Of a stretch of DNA of 64,000 nt, positions 5,237 to 54,431 are shown piece by piece (the first letter of the stretch is position 1; every line of letters starts with the position of its first letter). The notes beneath the pieces were generated by a model. The model was given only the letters and a program-made list of their open reading frames with translations. It made no database searches and was not told the origin of the DNA. The position numbers were made by a program, and so were the translations under genes. This stretch comes from Candidatus Nomurabacteria bacterium GW2011_GWE2_34_25. Its GTDB lineage: Bacteria; Patescibacteriota; Minisyncoccia; Phycocordibacterales; UBA9973. The DNA is taken from the NCBI GenBank assembly GCA_000990325.1, contig LBPS01000005.1, positions 17,161-81,160 on the forward strand. The letters run 5' to 3'.

Positions 5237-5264
5237 TAAAAAGACCTCGAAAGAGGTCTTTTTA
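5237..5264 (+). terminator. rho-independent terminator after rpsI
   Basis: aagacctc-gaaa-gaggtctt hairpin followed by a T run. Confidence 0.8.
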
Positions 5265-5277
5265 AGTTTACTCCATT

Positions 5278-5480
5278 GTGGGGAGAAAGGGGTCGGGGAA
5301 ACTCCGGTTTCCTTACAGGAACTGTCCGCTCATTGGATTTTATGTGTGAGTACATACAAAAAACCTCAATGAGCCTTGCGGAGTTCCAAGTATTCACTCC
5401 TCACCCCGTGGAGGAAGGCAGGGTACTCCCGTTGGAAAACCGTGGGTTTCCAAAGAGCCGGAGGCGACCACATTGGTCAA
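5278..5480 (+). ncRNA. candidate structured ncRNA (GC-rich island)
   Basis: A ~200-nt GC-rich segment in an AT-rich genome with multiple nested complementary helices. Examples are GGAACTgtCCGC/GCGGAGTTCC, GCTCATTG/CAATGAGC, and 5' GGAAACTCCGG against 3' CCGGAGG. It is flanked by a duplicated rpsI 3' end, and its own terminator lies at 5494-5524. Confidence 0.4.
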
Positions 5481-5493
5481 AACGTTAATATAC

Positions 5494-5524
5494 AAAAAAC
5501 TTCCTGCATGGGAAGTTTTTTTTG
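5494..5524 (+). terminator. rho-independent terminator
   Basis: aacttcc-tgcatg-ggaagtt followed by T8. Confidence 0.8.
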
Positions 5525-5556
5525 TATAAATATATTGAAATGATATAATATTTTAT

Positions 5557-6420: not shown

Positions 6421-6440
6421 TAAACTCATCTCTAGTTGTT

Positions 6441-7153
6441 TCCAGCCTTGCTGGTAAAATTATGCATGATATAATACAAAAATGTCAATACGTAAGGTAA
6501 ATTTTGTTCACGGGGAATATTATCACATATATAATCGTGGAAATAGTAAACAAAAAATATTTCAAGATAAGGAAGATTATGAATATTTTCTTAAATTGCT
6601 TTTTATTGCAAATGGTGAAGAAAAATTTAAATTTCATTTTTTAGAAGGTAATGTTTATGAAGCTAAAAGAGGGAATCAACTTGTTGGTATTGGTGCTTAT
6701 GTTTTAATGCCAAATCATTTCCATATACTTATAACCGAAACCCAAGAAGGTGGTATAAGTAAATTTTTACATAAAGTTTCAAGTGGTTATTCTCACTATT
6801 ATAATAAAAAATACGAAAGAACAGGATCTTTATTTGAAGGAAAGTTCAAATCAGAATATATAGATAATAATCGTTATTTTAAATATCTGTTCTCATATAT
6901 TCATCTAAATCCTATTAAGTTGATTCAGAAAAATTGGAAAGAAGAGGGTATCAAGGAGAAAGAAAATATTTTGTATTTTCTTAATGATTATAAATATTCT
7001 AGTTATAAAGATTATTTAAATATATCTAGACAAGAAAATTTAATTCTTAATAGAAAAGATTTTCCCAACTATTTTTCATCAAAAAATACATTTTTAAAAG
7101 AAATATTTGACTGGATTAAGATAGAATTGTAAAATTTTACCAGCAAGGCTGGA
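6441..7153 (+). mobile_element. RAYT-type (IS200-like Y1 transposase) unit bounded by 21-bp perfect inverted REP-like hairpin repeats
   Basis: 6441-6461 TCCAGCCTTGCTGGTAAAATT is the exact reverse complement of 7133-7153. Each arm contains the hairpin CCAGC-CTT-GCTGG. Confidence 0.7.
6482..7132 (+). CDS. IS200/REP-associated tyrosine (Y1, HuH) transposase-like protein
   Basis: YHIYNRGN...KIF, HuH motif LMPNHFHILI, ...RTGSLFEGKFKS... and a catalytic-Tyr region YIHLNPIK. This matches the Y1_Tnp (IS200-like) / RAYT fold. Confidence 0.75.
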   Translation: MSIRKVNFVHGEYYHIYNRGNSKQKIFQDKEDYEYFLKLLFIANGEEKFKFHFLEGNVYEAKRGNQLVGIGAYVLMPNHFHILITETQEGGISKFLHKVSSGYSHYYNKKYERTGSLFEGKFKSEYIDNNRYFKYLFSYIHLNPIKLIQKNWKEEGIKEKENILYFLNDYKYSSYKDYLNISRQENLILNRKDFPNYFSSKNTFLKEIFDWIKIEL

Positions 7154-7214
7154 ATAATATGATTTTTAAAAACAAAGACTTGAAAAAGTCTCTATTTTTG
7201 TATAAGATAAGAAT

Positions 7215-7868
7215 ATGAAAGATGAAGAAATAATAGATAATGAGAAATCTACAGAGGAAAAAGAAAGTATTATAAAGAGAGAAGATCGTTTTAATCCCAT
7301 TGAACTGTCTTCTGGGGAACTTCACGTTGAACCAGACATGATATATGTTGATAGTGATGAAGATGGAGATGCATTGCCATCAAAAGATGTTGTAAAAAAA
7401 CTACGTGAAGAATTAAAAACTTTAAGAAAGGAGAAAGAAGAATATTTGACAGGCTGGCAGAGAGCGAAAGCAGACTATGTGAATTTACAGAAAGAGCTTG
7501 ATTTAGCCCGAATAAATATATCTATTTTAACTAAAGAAAAAATGGTAGAGAAGTTGCTTCCAAGTCTCGATAGTTTCGAGATGGCGTTTTCAAATAAAGA
7601 ACATTGGGAGAAAATAGACAAAGATTGGCAAAATGGCATAACTTCTATATATCAGCAACTTACCTCTGGGTTATCTGAAGCAGGAATTGAAAAAATAGAT
7701 CAGATTGGAATTCCATTTGATCCTAACGTTCATCAGTCTATAAGCATCGTAGCTACAGAAGACCAGACGAAAGATCACACGGTAGAAAAAGTTCTACAAG
7801 TAGGATATAAAATAGGAGAAAGAGTTATTCGCCCAGCCAAAGTCACTATTTTTGAATACAAGAAATAA
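7215..7868 (+). CDS. grpE: nucleotide exchange factor GrpE
   Basis: Coiled-coil N-terminus, then LTGWQRAKADYVN...VIRPAKVTIF, the GrpE signature. It lies upstream of dnaK. Confidence 0.9.
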   Translation: MKDEEIIDNEKSTEEKESIIKREDRFNPIELSSGELHVEPDMIYVDSDEDGDALPSKDVVKKLREELKTLRKEKEEYLTGWQRAKADYVNLQKELDLARINISILTKEKMVEKLLPSLDSFEMAFSNKEHWEKIDKDWQNGITSIYQQLTSGLSEAGIEKIDQIGIPFDPNVHQSISIVATEDQTKDHTVEKVLQVGYKIGERVIRPAKVTIFEYKK

Positions 7869-8367
7869 ATTCTTTTTCGGTTTCTTCATCTATTTTGTCT
7901 GTCACTATAATTATAAGTTCAGTGGAGAGATTTAAATCCTTTTTTATATTTGTAAAGAGATGTTCGAAAGGGTACATAGATATCCAGACAGAATTTTTCA
8001 AGCAGGCGAAGCCTGCTTTCTTAAGCAAGTAACGAAGTGCTTCACGTTCGCTCTTTCTATCCTCAGGCATATCAAGTAGAATTATTCTCCAAAATCCGTC
8101 CCAGGTATTGCTAATAAGAGCATTCTCACATTCAAGCTTCAAACTATTTGCTCGTTTTTTACCTTCTTTTGTGAGCTTTGTATATTGATTTTGCCCTGAA
8201 TATATACTTTCTATCAATCCTGCATCCTTTAGACCCTTTATAGAACGATTTAAGGCATATTGGCTATCCTTATCAAGGACTATCTTTTTTTCTAGTTCTC
8301 CAGCAGATATTGCTGGTTTTTCTGATAGGATTTTTATAATTTTCTTTGAAAAATCACGCTTTTTCAT
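7846..8367 (-). CDS. PaaX-like winged-helix transcriptional regulator
   Basis: C-terminal TWDGFWRIILLDMPEDRKSEREALRYLLKKAGFACLKNSVWISMYP matches the PaaX C-terminal domain pattern (WDGxW...PE...R..LR..L...GF..L.NSVW..P). It is divergent from dnaK. Confidence 0.55.
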   Translation of the reverse strand: MKKRDFSKKIIKILSEKPAISAGELEKKIVLDKDSQYALNRSIKGLKDAGLIESIYSGQNQYTKLTKEGKKRANSLKLECENALISNTWDGFWRIILLDMPEDRKSEREALRYLLKKAGFACLKNSVWISMYPFEHLFTNIKKDLNLSTELIIIVTDKIDEETEKEFISCIQK

Positions 8368-8405
8368 GGTATTGACAGTGTATCATATATGAATATAATA
8401 TTCAA

Positions 8406-8433
8406 CAAGTATTTAGCGGTCGCTAAATACTTG
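8406..8433. promoter_or_regulatory. 28-bp palindromic operator (13-nt arms) between the divergent regulator and dnaK
   Basis: CAAGTATTTAGCG-gt-CGCTAAATACTTG. It overlaps the -35 (TTGTCA 8431-8436) of a promoter with -10 TATAAT at 8453-8458 and a 16-nt spacer. Confidence 0.6.
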
Positions 8434-8485
8434 TCAAAAATTAAAGTTAGTATATAATGAGATAGTGTTTAAAAATAATTAACTT

Positions 8486-8555
8486 CGCAGAAATATTAAA
8501 ATTTTCACAGCTTTACCCTAAAGGGCTCCGACGCTGATAAAAATTTTAACATTTC
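8486..8555 (+). repeat. conserved upstream motif, copy 1 (upstream of dnaK)
   Basis: GCTTTACCC-loop-GGG...ACG...TTTnAACATTTnTnCTCCGTTA, enclosed by an inverted repeat gcagaaatattaaaattttcacag / ctgataaaaattttaacatttctgc. The second copy is at 38161-38233. Confidence 0.6.
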
Positions 8556-8594
8556 TGCTCCGTTAATAATATTATTAATTAATTATAAAAACAT

Positions 8595-10490
8595 ATGAGT
8601 AAAATTATAGGTATCGATTTGGGTACAACAAATAGTGCAGTGGCTATCATTGAAGGTGGTCAACCAAAAATTATTGAGAATATCGAGGGTGCTCGTACAA
8701 CTCCATCAGTGGTAGCAATTACCAAGAATGGTGATCGTATGGTGGGTCTTCTAGCGAAGCGTCAAGCAGTGACGAATCCTGAAAATACTGTTTACGGTAT
8801 TAAGAGATTCATTGGTCACATGTACGATGATCCAGAAATTCAGAAAGACGAGAAGACTATTCCTTACAAAATTCAGAAAGGAAGTACTGGTGGAGTAGAA
8901 ACAAAGATTGGAGATAGTTGGCTACGCCCAGAAGAGATTTCCGCTATGATTTTAAGTAAGATTAAGGCAGATGTAGAAGCAAAGCTCGGTGAGAAGATTA
9001 CTGAAGCAGTTATTACAGTTCCTGCATATTTCAACGATGCTCAGAGAAAGGCTACAAAAGACGCAGGGATCATCGCAGGACTTGATGTAAAACGTATTAT
9101 CAATGAACCTACTGCAGCTGCTCTTGCTTATGGATTTAATACAAAGAAAAATGAGAAGATTGTTGTCTACGACTTTGGAGGAGGTACGTTTGACGTGTCA
9201 GTTCTTGAAGTCGGCGATGATGTTATTGAAGTGAAGTCTACCGATGGCGATTCACACATGGGTGGTGAAGACATTGACCAGAAAATTGTGAAGTGGATTG
9301 CCGATGAATACAAGAAAGAATCAGGTATAGATGTTACTAAAGATATGCTCGCATTGCAACGTCTAAAGGAGGCTGCTGAGAAGACAAAGCATGAACTTTC
9401 AACAACAACAGATTCAGAAATAAATATTCCATTTATTACTTCAGATGCATCAGGACCAAAACATTTACTCTTGAAAATGTCTCGTGCGGTTCTAGAGTCT
9501 CTTGCAGAAGAGTATGTAACTCGTTCGATAGAAATTACAAAAAGAGCAGTTGAAGCTTCTCCATTTAAAATGGATGAAATTCATGAGATCATATTGGTTG
9601 GAGGTCAGACAAGAATGCCAAAGATTGTGGAAGAAGTAAAGAAATTGTTTGGTAAAGAACCAAATCGTTCAATCAATCCAGATGAAGTAGTAGCTCTCGG
9701 TGCTGCAGTACAAGCTGGAGTCCTACAGGGCGACGTACGCGACGTTCTTCTTCTAGACGTTATTCCACTATCTCTTGGAATAGAAACTCTTGGGAGGGTC
9801 GCCACAAAGCTCGTAGAACGCAACACAACCATACCTTCATCTAAGTCACAAATATTCTCAACTGCCGCAGACAATCAGACAAGCGTAGAAATACACATTA
9901 CTCAAGGTGAGCGTCCAATGGCAAGTGACAACAAGTCTCTCGGTAGATTTATCTTAGATGGTATTCCACCTTCACCACGAGGTATTCCTCAGGTGGAAGT
10001 TACCTTCGATGTAGATGCCAATGGAATCTTAAATGTGAAAGCCATGGACAAAGCTTCAGGCAAAGTTCAGTCAATTCGTATTGAAGCAAGTTCAGGACTT
10101 ACAGAAGCAGATATTAAAAAGATGCGAGATGAAGCAGAAGCTCATGCTGAAGAAGACGCTAAAAAGAAAGAATTAGCTGATCATAAGAATACAGCTGAAA
10201 TGATGATTTTCACAGCTGAGAAATCAGTCAAAGAATATGGCGACAAAGTTACTCCAGAAATAAAGACAGAAATAGAAAGTAAAATAACTGCGTTAAAAAC
10301 TGCAAAAGAAGGCAACGACATGGAAGCTATAAAGAAAGCAACAGAAGAACTTTCAAATGAAATGTCGAAAATTGGCGATAAGGCTCCAGAAGAGCAAGGC
10401 CCAGAAATAAGAGATGCGGAAACTACTGAAAGTAGTGCAGGTGCTGACAAAGGAAGTGCAGAAGTAAATGAAAATCCAGAACAGAAATAG
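8595..10490 (+). CDS. dnaK: molecular chaperone DnaK (Hsp70)
   Basis: [18 protein letters not shown], and 631 aa in length. Confidence 0.97.
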
Positions 10491-10514: not shown

Positions 10515-10623
10515 CTGAAAACAGCTTCTCCTCTCGGGTCCGCATAATTTCTTGCTAGAAATTTGCTCATTGCTCGGCTCGTCAGCCTGCGCCGGCCCCT
10601 CGCTGAAAACTATTTTCATGCAG
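10515..10623 (+). ncRNA. conserved structured intergenic element, copy 1 (after dnaK)
   Basis: Core GGGTCCGCATAATTTCTTGCTAGAAATTTGCTCATTGCTC... ending CGCCGGCCCCT. The 40-nt core is identical to the copy at 49744-49783. Flanking terminal stems are complementary but differ in sequence between the two copies (covariation). Confidence 0.5.
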
Positions 10624-36530: not shown

Positions 36531-36601
36531 CAAAATAAAAAAGACGACGAAAGTCGGTCTTTTTTATTTTGTGCCCGAAACGAGTGAACTACTTCACTCG
36601 T

Positions 36602-36687
36602 GAGGTGGAAATCGAAAGACTTTTTGTTCTCTGGTATTAACCAGAGCAAAAAGTACCAGCGACCATAGGGCGAGATACTCCCACCTC
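36602..36687 (+). ncRNA. candidate structured RNA element between tRNA-Leu and gatB
   Basis: Closed by GAGGTGG...CCACCTC. The interior has GACTTTTTG/CAAAAAGT and CTCTGGT-atta-ACCAGAG helices. Long hairpins at 36521-36600 precede it. Confidence 0.3.
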
Positions 36688-36726
36688 TATTTTCCCAATT
36701 ATTAAAATTTTGCTATACTCATACAT

Positions 36727-38142
36727 ATGTCAAAAGAATACTATACTACCATCGGCCTTGAGATACATGCGGAACTAAATACCAATTCTAAAATGTTTTG
36801 TGGTTGCAAGAACGACCCAGACGAAGTAAAACCAAATGTAAATATCTGCCCAGTTTGTATGGCTCATCCTGGTACTCTGCCTGTTATAAACAAGAAGGCA
36901 GTAGAGAGCGTTATAAAGGTAGGGCTTGCGCTCGGGGCCAATATTGCAGACTTTACAGAATTTGATAGAAAAAATTACTTTTATCCAGATATTCCAAAAG
37001 CTTACCAGATCTCACAATATAAATACCCAATCGTTTCTGGTGGCTCTCTTAAGGGAGTAGACATTACTCGTGTGCACCTAGAAGAAGATACCGCTACAAG
37101 TAAACATGACAGAGGGGATTATTCTCTTGTAGATTTTAATCGATGTGGGGTGCCTTTGATGGAGCTTGTGACCGAACCAGTAATTCATTCTTCTAAACAA
37201 GCTGGGGACTTCGGGAGAGAATTACAAACAGTCCTTCGGTACTTAGGAGTATCTGAAGCTAATATGGAAAAAGGTCAGATGAGAGTAGAACTCAACATTT
37301 CAATATCAGAAGACCCTAAGGTTTTTGGTACAAAGGTAGAAGTTAAAAATATTAATTCTTTCAAGGCGATGGAGCGTGCGGCAGAATATGAGATAAAAAG
37401 AATGTCCGCACTACTTGATACAGGAGAAGGAGATAAAATAGTTCAGGAAACTCGTGGTTGGGATGAAAGTAAACAGTCTACCTTCTCTCAGCGAAAGAAA
37501 GAAAATGCCAACGACTATAGATACTTCCCAGATCCAGATTTACCAAAACTATTTTTAAGTAAAGTTTTTGATATAGAAAAGATGAGAAGTGAACTTCCAG
37601 AACTTCCAGAAGCAAGAAGAAATAGATATAGGAATGATTGTGGAATTAAAGATGAAGATATAGAGAGTTATATTGTGGACAAAGAACTTGGCGACTGGTT
37701 CGAGAAAGTAGCAGGGGAGCTAAAAGATAAAAATAAAATTAAAATAGCCTCAAATTATATTACTTCTGATTATTTAGGCCTTAAAAAAGTAAATATGGAA
37801 GTCGGACTTCCATATGTTAAAAATTTTGCTGAGCTTATAGAGATGGTAGTAGAGAATAAAATTTCTTCTCGTGGAGCCAAAGATATCCTTGCTATGATAG
37901 TTATTAAAGATGAATCTCCACTTAAAGTAGCGACTGAAAAAGGGTTACTACAGAATCACGACGAAGGCGCACTCAAAGAAATAATAAAGAAAATTATAGA
38001 TGCCAACCCTACTGTTGTAGAAACCTACAAAGGAGGCAAAGAGAATGCTATAATGTCTCTAGTTGGTCAAGTTATGAAGGAAAGTAAAGGTAGTGCAAAT
38101 CCACAAATGGTTCAAAAATTATTAAAAGAATTATTAAGTTAA
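36727..38142 (+). CDS. gatB: Asp-tRNA(Asn)/Glu-tRNA(Gln) amidotransferase subunit B
   Basis: YYTTIGLEIHAELNTNSKMFCGCKN, the canonical GatB N-terminus, plus a C-terminal YqeY-like tail. Confidence 0.95.
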   Translation: MSKEYYTTIGLEIHAELNTNSKMFCGCKNDPDEVKPNVNICPVCMAHPGTLPVINKKAVESVIKVGLALGANIADFTEFDRKNYFYPDIPKAYQISQYKYPIVSGGSLKGVDITRVHLEEDTATSKHDRGDYSLVDFNRCGVPLMELVTEPVIHSSKQAGDFGRELQTVLRYLGVSEANMEKGQMRVELNISISEDPKVFGTKVEVKNINSFKAMERAAEYEIKRMSALLDTGEGDKIVQETRGWDESKQSTFSQRKKENANDYRYFPDPDLPKLFLSKVFDIEKMRSELPELPEARRNRYRNDCGIKDEDIESYIVDKELGDWFEKVAGELKDKNKIKIASNYITSDYLGLKKVNMEVGLPYVKNFAELIEMVVENKISSRGAKDILAMIVIKDESPLKVATEKGLLQNHDEGALKEIIKKIIDANPTVVETYKGGKENAIMSLVGQVMKESKGSANPQMVQKLLKELLS

Positions 38143-38160
38143 AATAACTACATAAAAATA

Positions 38161-38233
38161 TTCAAATTCTTCGCGCTTTACCCAGATTACTGGGACCTAC
38201 GCGACTCAGAATTTCAACATTTTTACTCCGTTA
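38161..38233 (+). repeat. conserved upstream motif, copy 2 (upstream of gap)
   Basis: Same GCTTTACCC-loop-GGG...ACG...TTTnAACATTTnTnCTCCGTTA pattern as 8486-8555. The outer stem co-varies (ttcaaattcttcgcg / cgcga..gaatttcaa). Confidence 0.6.
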
Positions 38234-38253
38234 TTTTGTGATATAATTATTAT

Positions 38254-39294
38254 ATGAAAAAGATAAAAGTTGCGATAAATGGTTTTGGGAGAATTGGAAG
38301 AGCATTTTTGAAGATTGCTTGGGAGAGGGAGGACATAGAGATAGTAGCAGTGAATGACTTGGGTTCTATTGAGAGTCTTTCTTATCTTCTTCGTCATGAT
38401 ACTGTTTATCGTAATTGGGGACATCCCGTGCGAATTGAAGCCAATTCTAATGGGACAAGCAACCTGCTTATTGACGACAAGAAAGTATTGTTCATTTCAG
38501 AAAAAGATACAACAAAACTTCCTTGGAAAGATTTGGATATTGATGTAGTTGTAGAATCCACAGGCCTCTTTACTTCATTTGATAAAGCAAAATTCCACCT
38601 TGATTGTGGAGCTAAAAAGGTAGTTATCAGTGCGCCCTCAAAAGGAGCTGAGAGTACAACTAAAGGTGAGACTATTATCCTTGGTGTTAACGAAGATAAA
38701 TTTGGAACATGTGACATCACTTCCAACGCATCTTGTACTAGTAACGCTGCTTCTCCGCTTATCGCGATCATGGATGAATCTATTGGTATTGAAAAGGCAG
38801 TTTTAAACACTGTCCACGGCTATACTGCTGCTCAGGTCCTCGTAGACGGCCCAAGTAAGAAAGACCTTCGTGAAGGTCGTGCAGCAGCTCAGAATATCGT
38901 TCCAAGCTCTACAGGAGCAGCTATCGCTTTGACTGAAGCCTTCCCAAGTCTTAAGGGATTATTCGACGGTCTAGCTATTCGTGTACCAGTTGTCGACGGG
39001 TCAATTGTAGATGTTACATTTATTGCGAAGAGAAATACCACAAAAGAAGAGGTTAATGAGATAATGAAAAAAGCAGCAAAAGATCCTCGATGGGAAAAAT
39101 TGTTTACTGTTACAGAAGACAATCTTGTTTCCTCAGATATTCTTGGAGAAAGTCATGCTTGTATAGCTGATATTGATCTGACTCGTGTCGTCGGAGGCAA
39201 CCTTGTGAAAGTCCTCGGCTGGTATGATAACGAAATGGGGTATACATACACTCTTGTTGATCATGTAGTTAAAACAGGTAATACTATAAAATAA
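38254..39294 (+). CDS. gap: glyceraldehyde-3-phosphate dehydrogenase
   Basis: INGFGRIGR and the ASCTSNA active-site motif. An extended -10 (TGTGATATAAT, 38237-38247) sits 6 nt before the ATG, suggesting a leaderless mRNA. Confidence 0.95.
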   Translation: MKKIKVAINGFGRIGRAFLKIAWEREDIEIVAVNDLGSIESLSYLLRHDTVYRNWGHPVRIEANSNGTSNLLIDDKKVLFISEKDTTKLPWKDLDIDVVVESTGLFTSFDKAKFHLDCGAKKVVISAPSKGAESTTKGETIILGVNEDKFGTCDITSNASCTSNAASPLIAIMDESIGIEKAVLNTVHGYTAAQVLVDGPSKKDLREGRAAAQNIVPSSTGAAIALTEAFPSLKGLFDGLAIRVPVVDGSIVDVTFIAKRNTTKEEVNEIMKKAAKDPRWEKLFTVTEDNLVSSDILGESHACIADIDLTRVVGGNLVKVLGWYDNEMGYTYTLVDHVVKTGNTIK

Positions 39295-49721: not shown

Positions 49722-49827
49722 ATCATAAATAGCTCTTCTCAGAGGGTCCGCATAATTTCTTGCTAGAAATTTGCTCATTGCTCAGTCCGTCGACCTCCGC
49801 CGGCCCCTCTGATAAGACTATTTATGA
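49722..49827 (+). ncRNA. conserved structured intergenic element, copy 2 (after rpmE)
   Basis: The same 40-nt core as 10536-10575, plus a conserved CGCCGGCCCCT. Terminal inverted repeats atcataaatag...cagaggg / ccctctg...ctatttatgat are perfect here. Confidence 0.5.
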
Positions 49828-49864: not shown

Positions 49865-50839
49865 ATGAATTTAGATTTAGAACAACTCAAGAAAGATCAC
49901 AAGACTAGCTATTTCGCTCTAGAATACGAGCGCCTTTTAATTGAAGAAGAAAAAGTAAATGATATGGTAGCTCTTGATGAAAGTCTACGTGACCTTGCAG
50001 AAGAGGAAATCCAAAATATTAAATTTCAAAAGGAAGCAATTGAAAGACAATTAGAAGAAATAATGAAAAGGGATATAGAGGAAGAAGAGTTCCCCAATGA
50101 AATTATCCTTGAAGTTCGCGCTGGAGCTGGAGGGGATGAAGCTTCACTTTTCGCATGGGAGCTTGCTCATATGTACGAAAGATTCTCTGAAGAGAAAAAT
50201 TGGAATTGGAAAATTCTCAATGAATCCTTAAGTAGTGCTGGTGGGTACAAAGAAGCATCGATAGAAGTAAAAGGTAAAGATGTATACAAGCTTCTACGCT
50301 ACGAGACCGGAGTTCATAGAGTACAACGTATTCCTGCCACAGAGAAAAATGGAAGAATACATACTTCGACAGCGTCAGTTGCTGTTCTTCCTTTGAAAAA
50401 GAAAACAACAATAGTCATAAATCCTGCAGATATAGAGATAGAGTACTCACGCTCAGGTGGAGCAGGAGGGCAGAATGTAAACAAAGTAGAGACAGCTGTT
50501 CGTCTTATACATAAGCCGACAGGAGAAGATGTTCGTTGTACTACGGAGAGAACCCAACTTGGCAACAGAGAAAAGGCTATGATGATGCTTACCTCTAAGC
50601 TTCAAATGATTAAAGATGAGGAAGATGCTAAAAAATATTCAGGGGACAGAAAAGCTCAAATAGGTACAAATGATAGAAGTGAGAAGATCCGCACCTACAA
50701 CTTCCCGCAAGATAGAGTCACCGACCACCGCATCAAGCAATCTTGGTCCAATATTCCTGGAATAATGGAGGGGAATATAAGTAGAATCATAGAAGCCCTT
50801 TCAAGTGGACAAGTAGGGGATGCAGAGGAAGAGGAGTAA
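49865..50839 (+). CDS. prfA: peptide chain release factor 1
   Basis: PAT tripeptide motif (PATE) and GGQ ([19 protein letters not shown]). The start is set at the first ATG downstream of the repeat element, so the N-terminal domain is short. Confidence 0.88.
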
Positions 50840-50993
50840 TTCCTTGCTATATTTTCCTATCTCTGGTATAATTCCACCCAGTAGTTAGCTTATGTTTTGG
50901 TATTAGTTTCATTCTTCGTTGTGCTAAATTCTTTTGGACATTGAGGTATGTAAATGAAATCAGCTTCGCGATTACGAGAATACATTGTCATAT

Positions 50994-51278
50994 ATGGCAA
51001 AAAAGTTGTATGTAGGTGGTCTTCCTTATAAGACTACCAACGATGAGCTAAGTGCTCATTTCAGTGCTGCAGGAGCTGTCGCTTCAGCAACTATTATTAT
51101 GGATAAGATGACAGGTCGCTCAAAAGGCTTTGGTTTCGTTGAAATGGAAAACGATTCAGATGCAGCTACAGCTATCTCAATGTTTGATGGAAAGGACTTC
51201 GAAGGAAGAAACCTTACAGTAAACGAAGCTCGTCCTATGGAAGAGCGTCCACAAAATGGTGGAGGTTTCCGCAGATAA
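50994..51278 (+). CDS. RRM-type RNA-binding protein
   Basis: RNP2 LYVGGL and RNP1 KGFGFVEM, with a Gly-rich tail. Confidence 0.8.
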   Translation: MAKKLYVGGLPYKTTNDELSAHFSAAGAVASATIIMDKMTGRSKGFGFVEMENDSDAATAISMFDGKDFEGRNLTVNEARPMEERPQNGGGFRR

Positions 51279-51295
51279 TTAACATTATCCTGAAT

Positions 51296-51330
51296 AAAAA
51301 TCCCTTACTCGAAAGAGCGAGGGATTTTAG
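51296..51330 (+). terminator. rho-independent terminator
   Basis: aaaaatccc...gggatttt hairpin followed by Ts. Confidence 0.7.
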
Positions 51331-51396
51331 TTTGACATATATCAATAGATGTTGTAAGATAGAAGAAAAATTTCATTCACATAAATATTAAAAGTT

Positions 51397-51915
51397 ATGA
51401 AAAAACAGAAGAAACTTTTGTATGAGTTACCTGAGGTACTTTTTTATCAGTTTTTAAATTATTTGGGAATAAAAGATGTAAAGGCTTTTGTTCTTAAGTA
51501 CAAAAATGGTAGAGAATCAAAAATTGCTTGTCTGTATGCAACTTTACCTCGACATGGAAAATATGAAAATCCGACTCTCGTATTGTTAGATTTGAGAAGT
51601 AGAGTTAATGAAACTCAACTGATCATACTAACTGAACCTCCTGTAATTATAGATGGCGAGGTAAAAAATTTATGTAACTATGCAAACATTTCAGCAAAAC
51701 AAAATGGTAGTAAAGATGAGGTCTTTGATATTACATTAACTGCCAATATGTCATATCTTGGTTCTGCCACAATTGGAGATCCCTTCAACAGATTCTCTTT
51801 TCTTTATATGTTAGAACTATCACAAAAAGCTGATGAACTGTTCCATTCGAAACAATTTGAATGGGTAAGTCAATACAAGAAAGAATTATCAGAAAATTAT
51901 GTATTCTTGTATTAA
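51397..51915 (+). CDS. hypothetical protein
   Basis: 172-aa ORF; I recognise no motif. Confidence 0.3.
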   Translation: MKKQKKLLYELPEVLFYQFLNYLGIKDVKAFVLKYKNGRESKIACLYATLPRHGKYENPTLVLLDLRSRVNETQLIILTEPPVIIDGEVKNLCNYANISAKQNGSKDEVFDITLTANMSYLGSATIGDPFNRFSFLYMLELSQKADELFHSKQFEWVSQYKKELSENYVFLY

Positions 51916-51974
51916 TCCAATAGCAATTAGTTTTAAACCCACAAAAAAGGACCAGATGATTCTGGTTCTTTATT

Positions 51975-51991
51975 TTTGTGCGTGTGCTTGG
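51975..51991. repeat. direct repeat of the tRNA-Ile 3' end (att-like)
   Basis: TTGTGCGTGTGCTTGGA is identical to 52157-52173 and covers the tRNA's 3' acceptor/T-arm. The second copy is 168 bp downstream of the tRNA. Confidence 0.6.
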
Positions 51992-52159
51992 ATCGCGAGT
52001 ACGCTTATCTCGCCCTACGGTAGCGGGTACTTTTCAATCTTCGATAATGAAAAGTCTTCCGATTCTCCTCACGGTTCGATTTACTAATCGCAAGATGCAA
52101 ACAAAGCAGTTTGTTTGCTCACGCGCACTTAAAAATCCCACAAGGGGATTTTTAAATTG

Positions 52160-52231
52160 TGCGTGTGCTTGGAATCGGACCAAGGACCTCTGTCTTATCA
52201 GGACAGCGTTCTACCACTGAACTACACACGC
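52160..52231 (-). tRNA. tRNA-Ile (anticodon GAU)
   Basis: Hand-folded from the reverse complement: acceptor GCGTGTG/CACACGC, D-arm GTTC-AGTGGTA-GAAC, anticodon stem CTGTC/GACAG with loop CTGATAA, T-arm CTTGG-TCCGATT-CCAAG. Confidence 0.85.
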
Positions 52232-52296
52232 AAAATACACAATTCAACTCAATTAAAACTCTTTATATATAAAGACTATACCAATATAGCAAAAAC

Positions 52297-52602
52297 TTGA
52301 AAATATCGCAATTATTTGATATAGTAGGGTCGGCCATAAGCCATTTTCTTTTTATGAATAATGATGACAAAAAGCAGAAAAAGGAATCATTGTTGAATAG
52401 TGAATATTTACAAGTATTTGCAAGGGTTTCGGCTTGGATTATTACGCCAGTTATCTTCAGTTTAATTATTGGCAAATACTTGGATAATAAATTCGATACA
52501 ACACCATGGATTTTATGTGTATCATTGGCCACCACGTTTACACTCTCAATGTTTATGATTATAAAAATTGCCAAGAAATACATGGATAAAGATTTAAAAT
52601 AA
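52297..52602 (+). CDS. AtpI/AtpZ-like small membrane protein preceding atpB
   Basis: 101 aa with two TM helices, located immediately upstream of the F0 a subunit gene. Confidence 0.4.
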   Translation: MKISQLFDIVGSAISHFLFMNNDDKKQKKESLLNSEYLQVFARVSAWIITPVIFSLIIGKYLDNKFDTTPWILCVSLATTFTLSMFMIIKIAKKYMDKDLK

Positions 52603-53531
52603 TGAGCCAAATTAATATAGAAAATCAAATAGGAGAGGCAGAAGCAGTAAACACAGTAGGAACTGGAGCTAGTGAGGAAATATCTCATGAATCCACTTTA
52701 TACGCTGAACCGATAGGACATATCGGTAACTTTACAATCACCAACTCAGTATTTACTACTTGGATAGTTGTTCTAATTGTCCTAGTTGTAACTCTTGCTA
52801 TTAAAATTAAAGCTAAGAAAATTCCAAAGGGAATCCAGAATGGATTTGAAATTATTATAGAGGGAGCAATGAATCTAGCTGATCAGGTCACAGGCAGTAA
52901 GAAGATAACTGCTAAAGTTTTCCCTCTAGCCTTTTCTATTTTCATCTTTGTCCTTATTAGCAACTGGTTAGGAATTTTACCTCTTGGTGGATTTGGGCTA
53001 ATAGAGACTACCGAACACGGAAAAGCATTTATACCATTTATCCGCAGTGGAACAGCTGATATCAATACAACCCTAGCTCTTGGAATCATGTCTGTCATCG
53101 GGGCAAATATCTTTGGTATATTATCTATCGGTGTATGGAAAATGTTCAATAAATATGTTAATGTAAATGCGTTTGGAGAAATGATAAGGAAAGTGAGGAA
53201 GGAGCCAGCGATCCTTATTTCAGCTCCAATCATGTTCTTCGTAGGAGTATTGGAACTTATAGGTGAATTTGCAAAAATAGCTTCACTTTCATTCCGTCTT
53301 TTCGGTAACGTTTTTGCGGGTGAGGTCTTGCTCATGTCTATGAGTGCCATTCTTGCGTATGGATTACCATTACCATTTATGGGGCTTGAGTTATTCGTGG
53401 GATTTATACAGGCATTCATCTTCTCTATATTAACTCTCGTATATTTCACAATTGCCGCTCAAGATCATGATGAACACGAAGAGCACAACGAAAAAGACAA
53501 GTCTACTCATAAAGAGCAAGCCTTGGTGTAG
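52602..53531 (+). CDS. atpB: ATP synthase F0 subunit a
   Basis: SLSFRLFGNVFAGEVLL contains the conserved Arg motif. Confidence 0.9.
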   Translation: MSQINIENQIGEAEAVNTVGTGASEEISHESTLYAEPIGHIGNFTITNSVFTTWIVVLIVLVVTLAIKIKAKKIPKGIQNGFEIIIEGAMNLADQVTGSKKITAKVFPLAFSIFIFVLISNWLGILPLGGFGLIETTEHGKAFIPFIRSGTADINTTLALGIMSVIGANIFGILSIGVWKMFNKYVNVNAFGEMIRKVRKEPAILISAPIMFFVGVLELIGEFAKIASLSFRLFGNVFAGEVLLMSMSAILAYGLPLPFMGLELFVGFIQAFIFSILTLVYFTIAAQDHDEHEEHNEKDKSTHKEQALV

Positions 53532-53575
53532 TAAAGTAAAGGTCAAACATTATTAGTTAATTGTATCTGAGTTAA

Positions 53576-53815
<240 letters not shown>

Positions 53816-53939
53816 TTTACTGTTTACATCTGGTCGTTTGTATCCTTGTCCGTCTGAAGTTCTATCATTCTTTCGGATTAGGATATCTCAAATGACTAGG
53901 AGTAAGAAGTAAAAATTATTAATCATTAATTATAAAATC

Positions 53940-54431
53940 ATGGATTCATTTATATCAACATTTCACATAGATTGGAAAATTCTTATAGCTCAAGCAATAA
54001 ACTTCGGTTTAGTTTTTCTTTTAATTTATTTCTTTGCCTTAAAACCAATAAAGAAAATAATGAAAGAAAGAACTGATAGTATAGAAGGAGGTCTGACGGA
54101 TGCAGTTAAAAATGCAGAATTATTAAAGAAAACGAAAAATGAATATGAGGAGGTCTTGGCAAATGCACGCATAGAAGCCAACACTATCTTCCAAGAAGGG
54201 AAAAAGGAGGCCGAAGACAAGAAAAGGGTAATGATTGAGGATGCAAATAAAGAAATAGGAGAAATGATAGAAAAAGGGAAAAAGTCACTTGAGTCTGAAA
54301 AAACCAAAATGATAGAAGAAGCCAAGAATGAAATAGTATCTCTCGTAGTTAAAGCAACAGAAAAGCTTCTAGAATCCCACAAAGATGCATCCTTCGATGA
54401 GAAAACATTAGAACAAATCAAGAAAATGTAA
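53940..54431 (+). CDS. atpF: ATP synthase F0 subunit b
   Basis: A single N-terminal TM followed by a long charged helix. Confidence 0.85.
   Translation: MDSFISTFHIDWKILIAQAINFGLVFLLIYFFALKPIKKIMKERTDSIEGGLTDAVKNAELLKKTKNEYEEVLANARIEANTIFQEGKKEAEDKKRVMIEDANKEIGEMIEKGKKSLESEKTKMIEEAKNEIVSLVVKATEKLLESHKDASFDEKTLEQIKKM

What the first reader, a model, noticed from the sequence alone, without database searches (positions are those of the whole stretch)
8486..8555. Conserved ~70-nt motif upstream of dnaK (copy 1 of 2), shared with gap
GCTTTACCC-(loop)-GGG..ACG..TTTnAACATTTnTnCTCCGTTA is shared almost exactly with 38175-38233 upstream of gap. Both copies are on the coding strand and end 20-40 nt before the start codon. 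Both are enclosed by an outer inverted repeat. Here it is gcagaaatattaaaattttcacag / ctgataaaaattttaacatttctgc. The sequence of this outer repeat differs in the other copy but stays complementary. That pattern suggests an RNA leader structure, or a protein-binding site with a conserved core and a structural flank. It lies downstream of the 8431-8458 promoter, so it may be the 5' UTR of dnaK.
Basis: seen in the sequence. Interest (0 to 1): 0.55.

Follow-up and report, generated by a model that had tools for sequence, protein, structure and literature searches.

The report
Small palindromic insert before dnaK, gap
The shared motif is real: it is a roughly 90-base hairpin-forming insert found at two sites in one groundwater Nomurabacteria species and at one of them in a single relative, so it is a lineage-specific element and not a general control region for dnaK or gap.

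Summary
Two copies (8478-8567 and 38143-38237) share a core, GCTTTACCC-loop-GGG..CC.ACG, and a 3' block, AATTTnAACATTTnTnnTCCGTTA. Each folds into a long imperfect hairpin, with 5 compensatory pairs between the copies. No Rfam family matches.

The element is not a conserved dnaK or gap leader. It is missing upstream of gap in every relative examined. It is missing upstream of dnaK in 4 of 5 close relatives, where the alignment shows a clean ~90-nt gap.

One relative (L120) has it at exactly the same dnaK position. That copy is 82/88 identical, while four-fold sites of dnaK are only 54% identical, so the dnaK copy is under purifying selection.

At dnaK the element lies 13 nt downstream of a conserved promoter-operator region. 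At gap it lies between the gatB stop codon and a leaderless-type gap promoter, so there it is not a 5' UTR.

Folding energies and wobble substitutions favour the minus strand.

Best reading: a low-copy palindromic insertion element resembling MITE, Correia or ERIC repeats. It was retained at dnaK and probably acts as a hairpin on transcripts that cross it. Mechanism and strand remain unproven. Interest is modest.

The parts
8478..8567 (.). Element, dnaK copy (about 90 nt). Outermost stem ATTAAC/GTTAAT, a 3x3 internal loop (TTC/TCC), a long AT-rich stem at 8487-8510 / 8534-8558, and the asymmetric core at 8511-8533.
   Evidence: Its boundaries come from the filled-versus-empty alignment of six species.
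8511..8533 (.). Conserved asymmetric core CTTTACCC-TAAA-GGG-CTCCGACG. On the minus strand it reads CGUCGGAGCCCUUUAGGGUAAAG, with purine-rich internal loops.
8542..8565 (.). Conserved 3' block AATTTTAACATTTCTGCTCCGTTA. It is identical in pattern in all three known copies. It carries the invariant A.C (plus strand) / G.U (minus strand) position.
38143..38237 (.). Element, gap copy (about 95 nt). It fills the spacer between the gatB stop codon (38140-38142) and the gap promoter.
   Evidence: Relatives have a 10-30 nt spacer here.
8372..8399 (+). P1: TTGACA-16-TATAAT (12/12 match), conserved in six species.
8403..8434 (.). Perfect 14-bp palindrome ACAAGTATTTAGCG-GT-CGCTAAATACTTGT. It is conserved in six species and overlaps the -35 of P2. 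It is the likely operator of the divergent PaaX_M-type regulator (7846-8367, minus strand).
8431..8458 (+). P2: TTGTCA-16-TATAAT (11/12 match). The inferred start near 8465 puts the element at about +13 to +102 of the dnaK leader.
38237..38247 (+). gap promoter TGTGATATAAT (extended -10). It ends 6 nt before ATG 38254, the leaderless layout.

Best explanation
It is a low-copy, lineage-restricted palindromic insertion element of about 90 nt. Its build is long, partly covarying inverted-repeat arms around a conserved asymmetric core, like the small bacterial repeats of the MITE, Correia, ERIC and REP kind. One copy entered the transcribed dnaK leader, just downstream of the conserved promoter-operator region. 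A second, older or more diverged copy sits between gatB and the leaderless gap promoter. The insertions are shown. Retention of the dnaK copy under purifying selection is shown. The following is inferred. The element acts as a long nucleic-acid hairpin on transcripts that cross it, as a processing, stability or termination (insulating) structure at the boundary between an upstream transcription unit and the promoter/ATG of the next gene. It is probably not a ligand- or temperature-sensing leader. Which strand is the active one is unresolved, and the minus strand is favoured.
For: There are two specific copies in about 81 kb of this species, and none expected by chance. At dnaK it is a discrete indel: the PaaX-dnaK spacer is 227 and 233 nt in the window and L120 but 130-161 nt in L118, L119, L124 and L125, with a clean ~90-nt gap in the alignment. 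At gap, relatives have a 10-30 nt spacer (L003, L123) or something else in it: a terminator (L004), a DUF1653 gene (L121), a RAYT-like gene (L122) or a D1-type repeat (L006). So this is an insertion-prone site. No copy was found in 1.3-1.4 Mb from 77 related Patescibacteria loci. The same genomes carry another small hairpin repeat, D1, that is plainly multi-copy: 3 copies in 22 kb of L120 and 2 in the window. The dnaK copy is 82/88 identical between the window and L120, against 54% identity at 263 four-fold sites of dnaK (P about 6e-16). Flanking genes show no raised identity. One of the 6 differences is a G-C to A-U compensatory pair. [quoted passage not shown] Reviews of small bacterial repeats: PMC2229807 and PMC10969869.
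Against: No target-site duplication is visible and no cognate transposase was identified. Only three copies are known, and the whole genome could not be searched. Orthologous copies (93% identical) are more alike than the two copies within one genome (76%), which is the opposite of a recently active repeat. The element is present in the window and L120 but absent in L125, which groups with the window in 182 of 200 bootstraps. That needs at least two events. Conservation extends to the sequence of both arms, which is more than a plain RNA hairpin needs. There is no transcript evidence for either strand.
Confidence: 0.45

Rival explanations
1. A small RNA or transcript-ending hairpin made from the minus strand, antisense to the dnaK leader and the gatB 3' end. 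One version is a terminator or insulator for divergent transcription that starts at the symmetric -10 boxes of the dnaK and gap promoters.
For: RNA folding energies for the minus strand are -39.3, -39.4 and -31.2 kcal/mol, against -26.6, -25.5 and -23.2 for the plus strand. The alignment consensus energy is -33.6 against -22.1. One G.U pair is invariant on the minus strand and is an A.C mismatch on the plus strand. Several one-sided changes stay paired only on the minus strand. The basal loop reads GGA/GAA, which allows tandem G.A pairs. Both window copies have a TATAAT on the minus strand 15-16 nt upstream of the element and a U-rich tail after the hairpin, as seen. These intergenic regions are among the most minus-biased in the window.
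Against: Only about 7 wobble events favour the minus strand against 2 for the plus strand, which is not significant. The L120 copy has no U-rich tail. The terminator scan reports nothing for the element on either strand. TATAAT is frequent in AT-rich promoter DNA. No minus-strand gene lies downstream of the gap copy. With DNA parameters the strand difference is only about 3 kcal/mol.
Confidence: 0.2
2. One reading: a dedicated plus-strand cis-regulatory leader RNA that controls dnaK and gap together, for example an RNA thermometer, a riboswitch-like element, or a stabilising or processing hairpin.
For: The dnaK copy lies in the leader transcribed from P1/P2. Both copies have the orientation of the downstream gene. 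The dnaK copy is strongly conserved in L120. From my own knowledge, the Bacillus subtilis dnaK and gapA operons are both controlled by mRNA processing and stabilising stem-loops. That is an analogy, not a test.
Against: The gap copy lies upstream of the gap promoter, and gap appears leaderless. The element is absent from all gap orthologues and from 4 of 5 dnaK orthologues. The hairpin ends 27 nt before the AUG and covers neither a Shine-Dalgarno sequence nor the AUG. There is no Rfam match. The plus strand folds worse than the minus strand.
Confidence: 0.15
3. A double-stranded DNA site for a protein (activator, repressor or nucleoid protein) placed just upstream of the promoter of the next gene.
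For: Sequence, and not only pairing, is conserved in both arms (82/88). The two copies end 27 and 16 nt before the ATG, a difference of about one helical turn. The dnaK copy sits in a densely regulated region.
Against: A 90-bp palindrome with a 40-bp arm is far larger than known operators. Five compensatory pairs between paralogues fit a hairpin better than half-site recognition. The obvious operator is the separate 14-bp palindrome at 8403-8434. There is no candidate binding protein.
Confidence: 0.08

Closest known systems
Correia repeat enclosed elements (CREE/NEMIS) of Neisseria
   Same: About 100 nt, non-coding and intergenic, with inverted-repeat arms around a conserved core. Present or absent at orthologous sites. 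Often just upstream of genes and co-transcribed. In Neisseria the RNA hairpin is a known RNase III substrate, and element ends can contribute promoter hexamers (PMC2649163). Here TTAACA in the 3' arm lies 18 nt from TATTAT (a 10/12 match).
   Different: No TA target duplication is visible. Only 2-3 copies are known, against hundreds. There is no sequence similarity. The IHF site and RNase III cleavage were not tested.
ERIC / other MITE-like enterobacterial repeats
   Same: Imperfect palindromes in transcribed intergenic regions. From my own knowledge of the ERIC literature, their sequence is conserved between species well above neutral expectation.
   Different: Here the conserved copies are at the same orthologous site. 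Copy number is very low. The phylum differs (Patescibacteria/CPR).
REP/REPIN elements mobilised by RAYT transposases
   Same: Hairpin-forming extragenic repeats with no target duplication. A RAYT-like gene lies 1.3 kb away (6482-7132; NCBIfam REP_Tyr_transpos 46 bits, below the cut-off of 80). A RAYT-like gene occupies the gatB-gap spacer in L122.
   Different: The hairpins flanking the RAYT-like gene (CCAGCCTTGCTGG) occur only twice. Their similarity to the element core scores 14-15, below random hits of 20-22.
5'-leader RNA elements of heat-shock genes (ROSE, fourU thermometers) and the CIRCE operator
   Same: Located upstream of dnaK, within its leader.
   Different: The hairpin does not cover a ribosome-binding site or the AUG. 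The window has no CIRCE, even allowing 3 mismatches. The second copy is at a glycolytic gene. The element is absent from most relatives.

Membership tests
Any Rfam 15 family | Covariance-model score at or near the gathering threshold | tested here: not met
   The whole window at gathering thresholds gives only 2 tRNAs. Both loci searched at E up to 10 give only weak, unrelated miRNA and snoRNA matches far below threshold.
Conserved cis-regulatory leader (riboswitch-type) | Present upstream of orthologous genes across related genomes | tested here: not met
   Absent upstream of gap in the 80 genome loci and in the 3 closest metagenome relatives. Absent upstream of dnaK in 4 of 5 close relatives.
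RNA thermometer (ROSE/fourU) | The structure sequesters the Shine-Dalgarno sequence and/or the start codon | tested here: not met
   The hairpin ends at 8567 and the ATG is at 8595. Only 1 of 52 genes in the window has an SD-like sequence.
CIRCE/HrcA operator | TTAGCACTC-N9-GAGTGCTAA | tested here: not met
   0 matches in the window with up to 3 mismatches.
MITE | Short, non-coding, with terminal inverted repeats | tested here: met
   90-95 nt. Terminal (A/T)TAAC / GTTA(T/A) plus long subterminal inverted repeats. The only ORF, a 15-codon minus-strand ORF, is cut to 4 codons in the gap copy (sequences).
MITE | Target-site duplication flanking the element | tested here: not met
   No direct repeat flanks either copy, and comparison with the empty sites shows none.
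MITE | Filled and empty orthologous sites | tested here: met
   dnaK leader: filled in the window and L120, empty in L118, L119, L124 and L125. gatB-gap spacer: empty in L003 and L123.
MITE | Many dispersed copies per genome | tested here: inconclusive
   2 copies in about 81 kb of this species and 1 in 22 kb of L120. The rest of these genomes could not be fetched.
REP/REPIN | The same hairpin sequence flanks the RAYT gene | tested here: not met
   The RAYT-like gene is flanked by CCAGCCTTGCTGG hairpins. Their similarity to the element is not above background.
Intrinsic terminator | G+C-rich stem directly followed by a U tract | tested here: not met
   The terminator scan reports nothing for the element on either strand. 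The base of the stem is AT-rich. U-rich tails occur only on the minus strand of the two window copies.
Correia-type element | RNase III cleavage of the transcribed hairpin, and an IHF site | not testable with these tools
   On the minus strand the helix has 21 uninterrupted pairs, long enough in principle. No cleavage data exist.

The most novel reading that the evidence does not exclude
The element is a new class of structured RNA, probably read from the strand antisense to dnaK. It would be kept under very strong purifying selection, gained and lost as a cassette, and would tune expression of a chaperone gene and a glycolytic gene in a CPR bacterium that translates mostly leaderless mRNAs and uses no Shine-Dalgarno sequences.
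Probability: 0.15. Interest if true: 0.6.

Novelty: new member of a known kind. Interest (0 to 1): 0.32.

Why it matters
Almost nothing is known about non-coding elements or gene regulation in Patescibacteria (CPR). This is a clean case there of a small palindromic insert that landed in the regulatory region of an essential chaperone gene. It has since been conserved as strongly as the neighbouring promoter and operator, yet close relatives do without it. If it has an RNA function, it would be an entry point to post-transcriptional control in organisms with leaderless translation. If it does not, it documents that MITE-like repeats shape CPR intergenic regions. It also warns against reading shared upstream motifs as regulons.

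Tried and rejected
1. Known RNA family: Rfam found nothing at gathering or permissive thresholds.
2. More copies in the window or nearby: blastn, nhmmer and a covariance model found none in the window, and the covariance model found none in the roughly 17 kb of extra sequence from this species.
3. JGI metagenome scan with CTTTACCC-N-GGG-N-CATTTNNNCTCCG gave 28 hits, all chance. The pattern was too strict and would have missed the L120 copy.
4. IMG/VR scan with the 3' block gave one chance hit with no hairpin. Phage and plasmid BLAST gave only short AT-rich matches with E of 0.07 or worse.
5. Link to the nearby RAYT-like gene: its flanking hairpins are not significantly similar to the core.
6. 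Minus-strand mini-ORF preceded by GGAG-N5-AUG: it has 15 codons in the dnaK copies but 4 in the gap copy. Both amino-acid differences between the window and L120 are non-synonymous. This genome does not use SD sequences. Rejected as coding.
7. A promoter created by the element (TTAACA-18-TATTAT): there is no equivalent at gap, where the spacing is 22 nt.
8. Recent recombination as the reason for the 93% identity: flanking genes are only 70-88% identical, and the 5' flank is unalignable.
9. A ribosomal protein L36 look-up meant to reach more species returned the same species and one contig that ends just before the dnaK region.
10. Hammerhead reading of the CUGACGAG string in the D1 repeat: stem II and G12 are missing, and Rfam gives no hit.

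Full report
**What is there**

The window comes from a Candidatus Nomurabacteria/Paceibacteria bacterium (Patescibacteria, CPR). Identical sequence is found in NCBI GCA_000990275.1 and GCA_003446925.1 and in several groundwater metagenomes.

- GCTTTACCC-N-GGG-N-CG occurs only at 8510-8533 and 38175-38203, with 0.00 expected by chance.
- AACATTTNTNCTCCGTTA occurs exactly only at 8548-8565 and 38216-38233.
- The full similarity spans about 90-95 nt: 8478-8567 and 38143-38237.
- Each copy folds into one long imperfect hairpin (z = -5.3 and -6.0; none of 200 shuffles folds as well).
- Between the two copies, 5 of 27 predicted pairs are kept through changes on both sides.

No Rfam family matches, even at permissive thresholds. 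BLAST, nhmmer and a covariance model built from the two copies found no further copy in the window. The covariance model also found none in about 17 kb of flanking sequence from the same species.

**Genomic context**

This genome has almost no Shine-Dalgarno sequences (1 of 52 genes). In 19 of 52 genes a -10-like hexamer ends 5-9 nt before the ATG, which is the layout of leaderless mRNAs.

At gap:
- The promoter TGTGATATAAT ends 6 nt before the ATG at 38254.
- The element fills the space between the gatB stop codon (38140-38142) and this promoter.
- So it is not in a gap 5' UTR. It lies in the 3' region of gatB.

At dnaK, the upstream region holds, in order:
- P1 (TTGACA-16-TATAAT, 8372-8399);
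- a perfect 14-bp palindrome (8403-8434);
- P2 (TTGTCA-16-TATAAT, 8431-8458);
- the element, starting about 13 nt after the inferred P2 start;
- a 27-nt AT-rich stretch, then the ATG.

The gene transcribed divergently from dnaK encodes a PaaX_M-type regulator. There is no CIRCE element in the window.

**Comparison with relatives**

Upstream of gap:
- In 80 loci from other genomes (Gap up to 85% identical), a regular expression, visual inspection of the 20 closest, and the covariance model over 1.3 Mb found no copy.
- The same holds for the three closest Gap relatives from metagenomes, 88-89% identical.
- In those relatives the gatB-gap spacer is 10-30 nt (L003, L123), or it holds a plain terminator (L004), a DUF1653 gene (L121), a RAYT-like gene (L122) or a different hairpin repeat (L006).
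- This spacer is therefore a site that accepts insertions.

Upstream of dnaK:
- Five relatives share the grpE-regulator-dnaK-dnaJ arrangement (DnaK 90-93% identical by BLASTP; 95-96% over the global alignment).
- All five share P1, the palindrome, the P2 hexamers and the last ~30 nt before the ATG.
- Four of them (L118, L119, L124, L125) have a clean gap where the element lies in the window.
- Only L120 has the element, at exactly the same junction.

**Selection**

The window and L120 copies differ at 6 of 88 positions. dnaK four-fold degenerate sites in the same two genomes are only 54% identical (263 sites). That gives P of about 6e-16 for such conservation under neutrality.

Flanking genes show no raised identity (70-88%). 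The sequence just 5' of the element cannot be aligned. A recently exchanged patch is therefore unlikely.

The six differences break down as follows:
- one G-C to A-U compensatory pair (two positions);
- one change that repairs a mismatch;
- one change that keeps pairing only on the minus strand;
- two adjacent changes in the apical stem.

A neighbour-joining tree from 1589 amino-acid columns groups the window with L125, which lacks the element (182 of 200 bootstraps). It places L120 nearer the L118 cluster. The distribution therefore needs at least two events, most simply one old insertion followed by losses. Palindromes are easily deleted by replication slippage (general knowledge).

The two copies within the window are only 76% alike. 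The family is therefore old in this genome and not recently active.

**Strand**

As RNA, the minus strand folds much better in all three copies:

| Copy | Minus strand (kcal/mol) | Plus strand (kcal/mol) |
|---|---|---|
| window dnaK | -39.3 | -26.6 |
| window gap | -39.4 | -25.5 |
| L120 dnaK | -31.2 | -23.2 |

The alignment consensus is -33.6 against -22.1.

Three features account for this:
- One G.U pair is invariant on the minus strand and is an A.C mismatch on the plus strand.
- Several one-sided substitutions remain wobble pairs only on the minus strand.
- The internal loops are purine-rich on the minus strand (GGA/GAA) and pyrimidine-rich on the plus strand.

The regions holding the element are among the most minus-biased intergenic regions in the window. 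With DNA parameters the difference shrinks to about 3 kcal/mol. The number of independent events is small, about 7 against 2. The strand is therefore suggested, not established.

**Other repeats in these genomes**

A second, unrelated hairpin repeat, called D1 here, has the core GCTC..CTCGGCYCGTCRGCCTSCG.
- It lies between dnaK and dnaJ in the window and in L120 but not in L118 or L119.
- It has a second copy at 49727-49823.
- It occurs three times within 22 kb of L120, and also in L125, L006 and L019.

So these genomes do carry mobile-looking small hairpin repeats that insert into short intergenic spacers.

A RAYT-like gene (6482-7132) is flanked by its own inverted hairpins. Those hairpins occur only twice in the window and are not significantly similar to the element.

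**Interpretation**

The evidence fits a small palindromic insertion element, closest in design to Correia, ERIC and MITE repeats: inverted-repeat arms around a conserved core, intergenic, co-transcribed, and with filled and empty orthologous sites (PMC2649163, PMC2229807, PMC10969869).

Two things depart from a typical selfish repeat: the very low copy number, and the strong purifying selection on the dnaK copy. I therefore think the element was retained because it does something at that site.

What it does is inferred. Both copies sit at the boundary between an upstream transcription unit and the promoter/ATG of the next gene. Both form a helix of about 40 base pairs. The most economical role is a hairpin that processes, stabilises or ends transcripts crossing it.

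The rival readings, set out in the rival explanations, are:
- a minus-strand small RNA or terminator for divergent transcription;
- a protein-binding DNA site.

**Limits**
- Only three copies are known.
- The remaining parts of the relevant genomes could not be fetched.
- There are no transcript data.

Noticed in passing
window 10519-10615 and 49727-49823; L120 11967, 14670, 15890; L125 18279; L006 3120 and 9857-9983; L019 4570: A second hairpin repeat family (D1). Its GC-rich core is GCTC..CTCGGCYCGTCRGCCTSCG, and its outer stems are unrelated between copies but complementary within each copy. It has several near-identical copies per genome and inserts between dnaK and dnaJ in the window and L120 only. 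It has no Rfam match and folds better on the minus strand.
   Followed up: partly
window 8372-8458, with the regulator gene at 7846-8367 (minus strand): Two tandem consensus promoters and a perfect 14-bp palindrome (ACAAGTATTTAGCG-GT-CGCTAAATACTTGT) lie between a divergent PaaX_M-type regulator gene and dnaK. All of this is conserved in six species, and no CIRCE is present. This is a candidate heat-shock repressor-operator system of Paceibacteria.
   Followed up: partly
window 6440-7156: A RAYT-like Y1 transposase gene (6482-7132; NCBIfam REP_Tyr_transpos 46 bits, below the cut-off). It is flanked by a perfect 21-bp inverted repeat, each arm holding a CCAGCNNNGCTGG hairpin, and these are the only two copies in the window. 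In L122 a related gene, with different flanking hairpins, sits in the gatB-gap spacer.
   Followed up: partly
whole window: Shine-Dalgarno-like sequences precede only 1 of 52 genes. In 19 of 52 genes a -10-like hexamer ends 5-9 nt before the ATG. Leaderless mRNAs appear to be the norm. GC skew is positive throughout the window.
   Followed up: partly
window 5266-5480: A structured, G+C-richer stretch of about 215 nt lies between two terminator hairpins (5237-5264 and about 5487-5530), downstream of rpsI. The 320-nt intergenic region folds at -116 kcal/mol (z = -6.7). There is no Rfam match at E up to 0.1. It is a candidate non-coding RNA gene of unknown family.
   Followed up: partly
window 50840-51396, 53532-53939, 36532-36726: Other long intergenic regions with strong predicted structure (-156, -107 and -60 kcal/mol). 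For the first two, an Rfam search of window 50800-54000 at E up to 0.1 matched only the tRNA at 52160-52231. The third had no match in the whole-window scan at gathering thresholds and was not searched at a permissive threshold.
   Followed up: partly
L005, L009, L015, L122, just upstream of gap: A conserved AACCCCGAA(C/T)GAATTTT motif lies just upstream of gap in several related species. In L122 it is preceded by a promoter and lies in a short leaderless ORF (MENNPERIFKITKGVK). It is absent from the window.
   Followed up: no
window 10300-10490 compared with L115, L116, L126: The called DnaK length differs between assemblies of the same species (631, 644 and 603 aa). The variation lies at the C-terminal end, next to the D1 repeat.
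   Followed up: no
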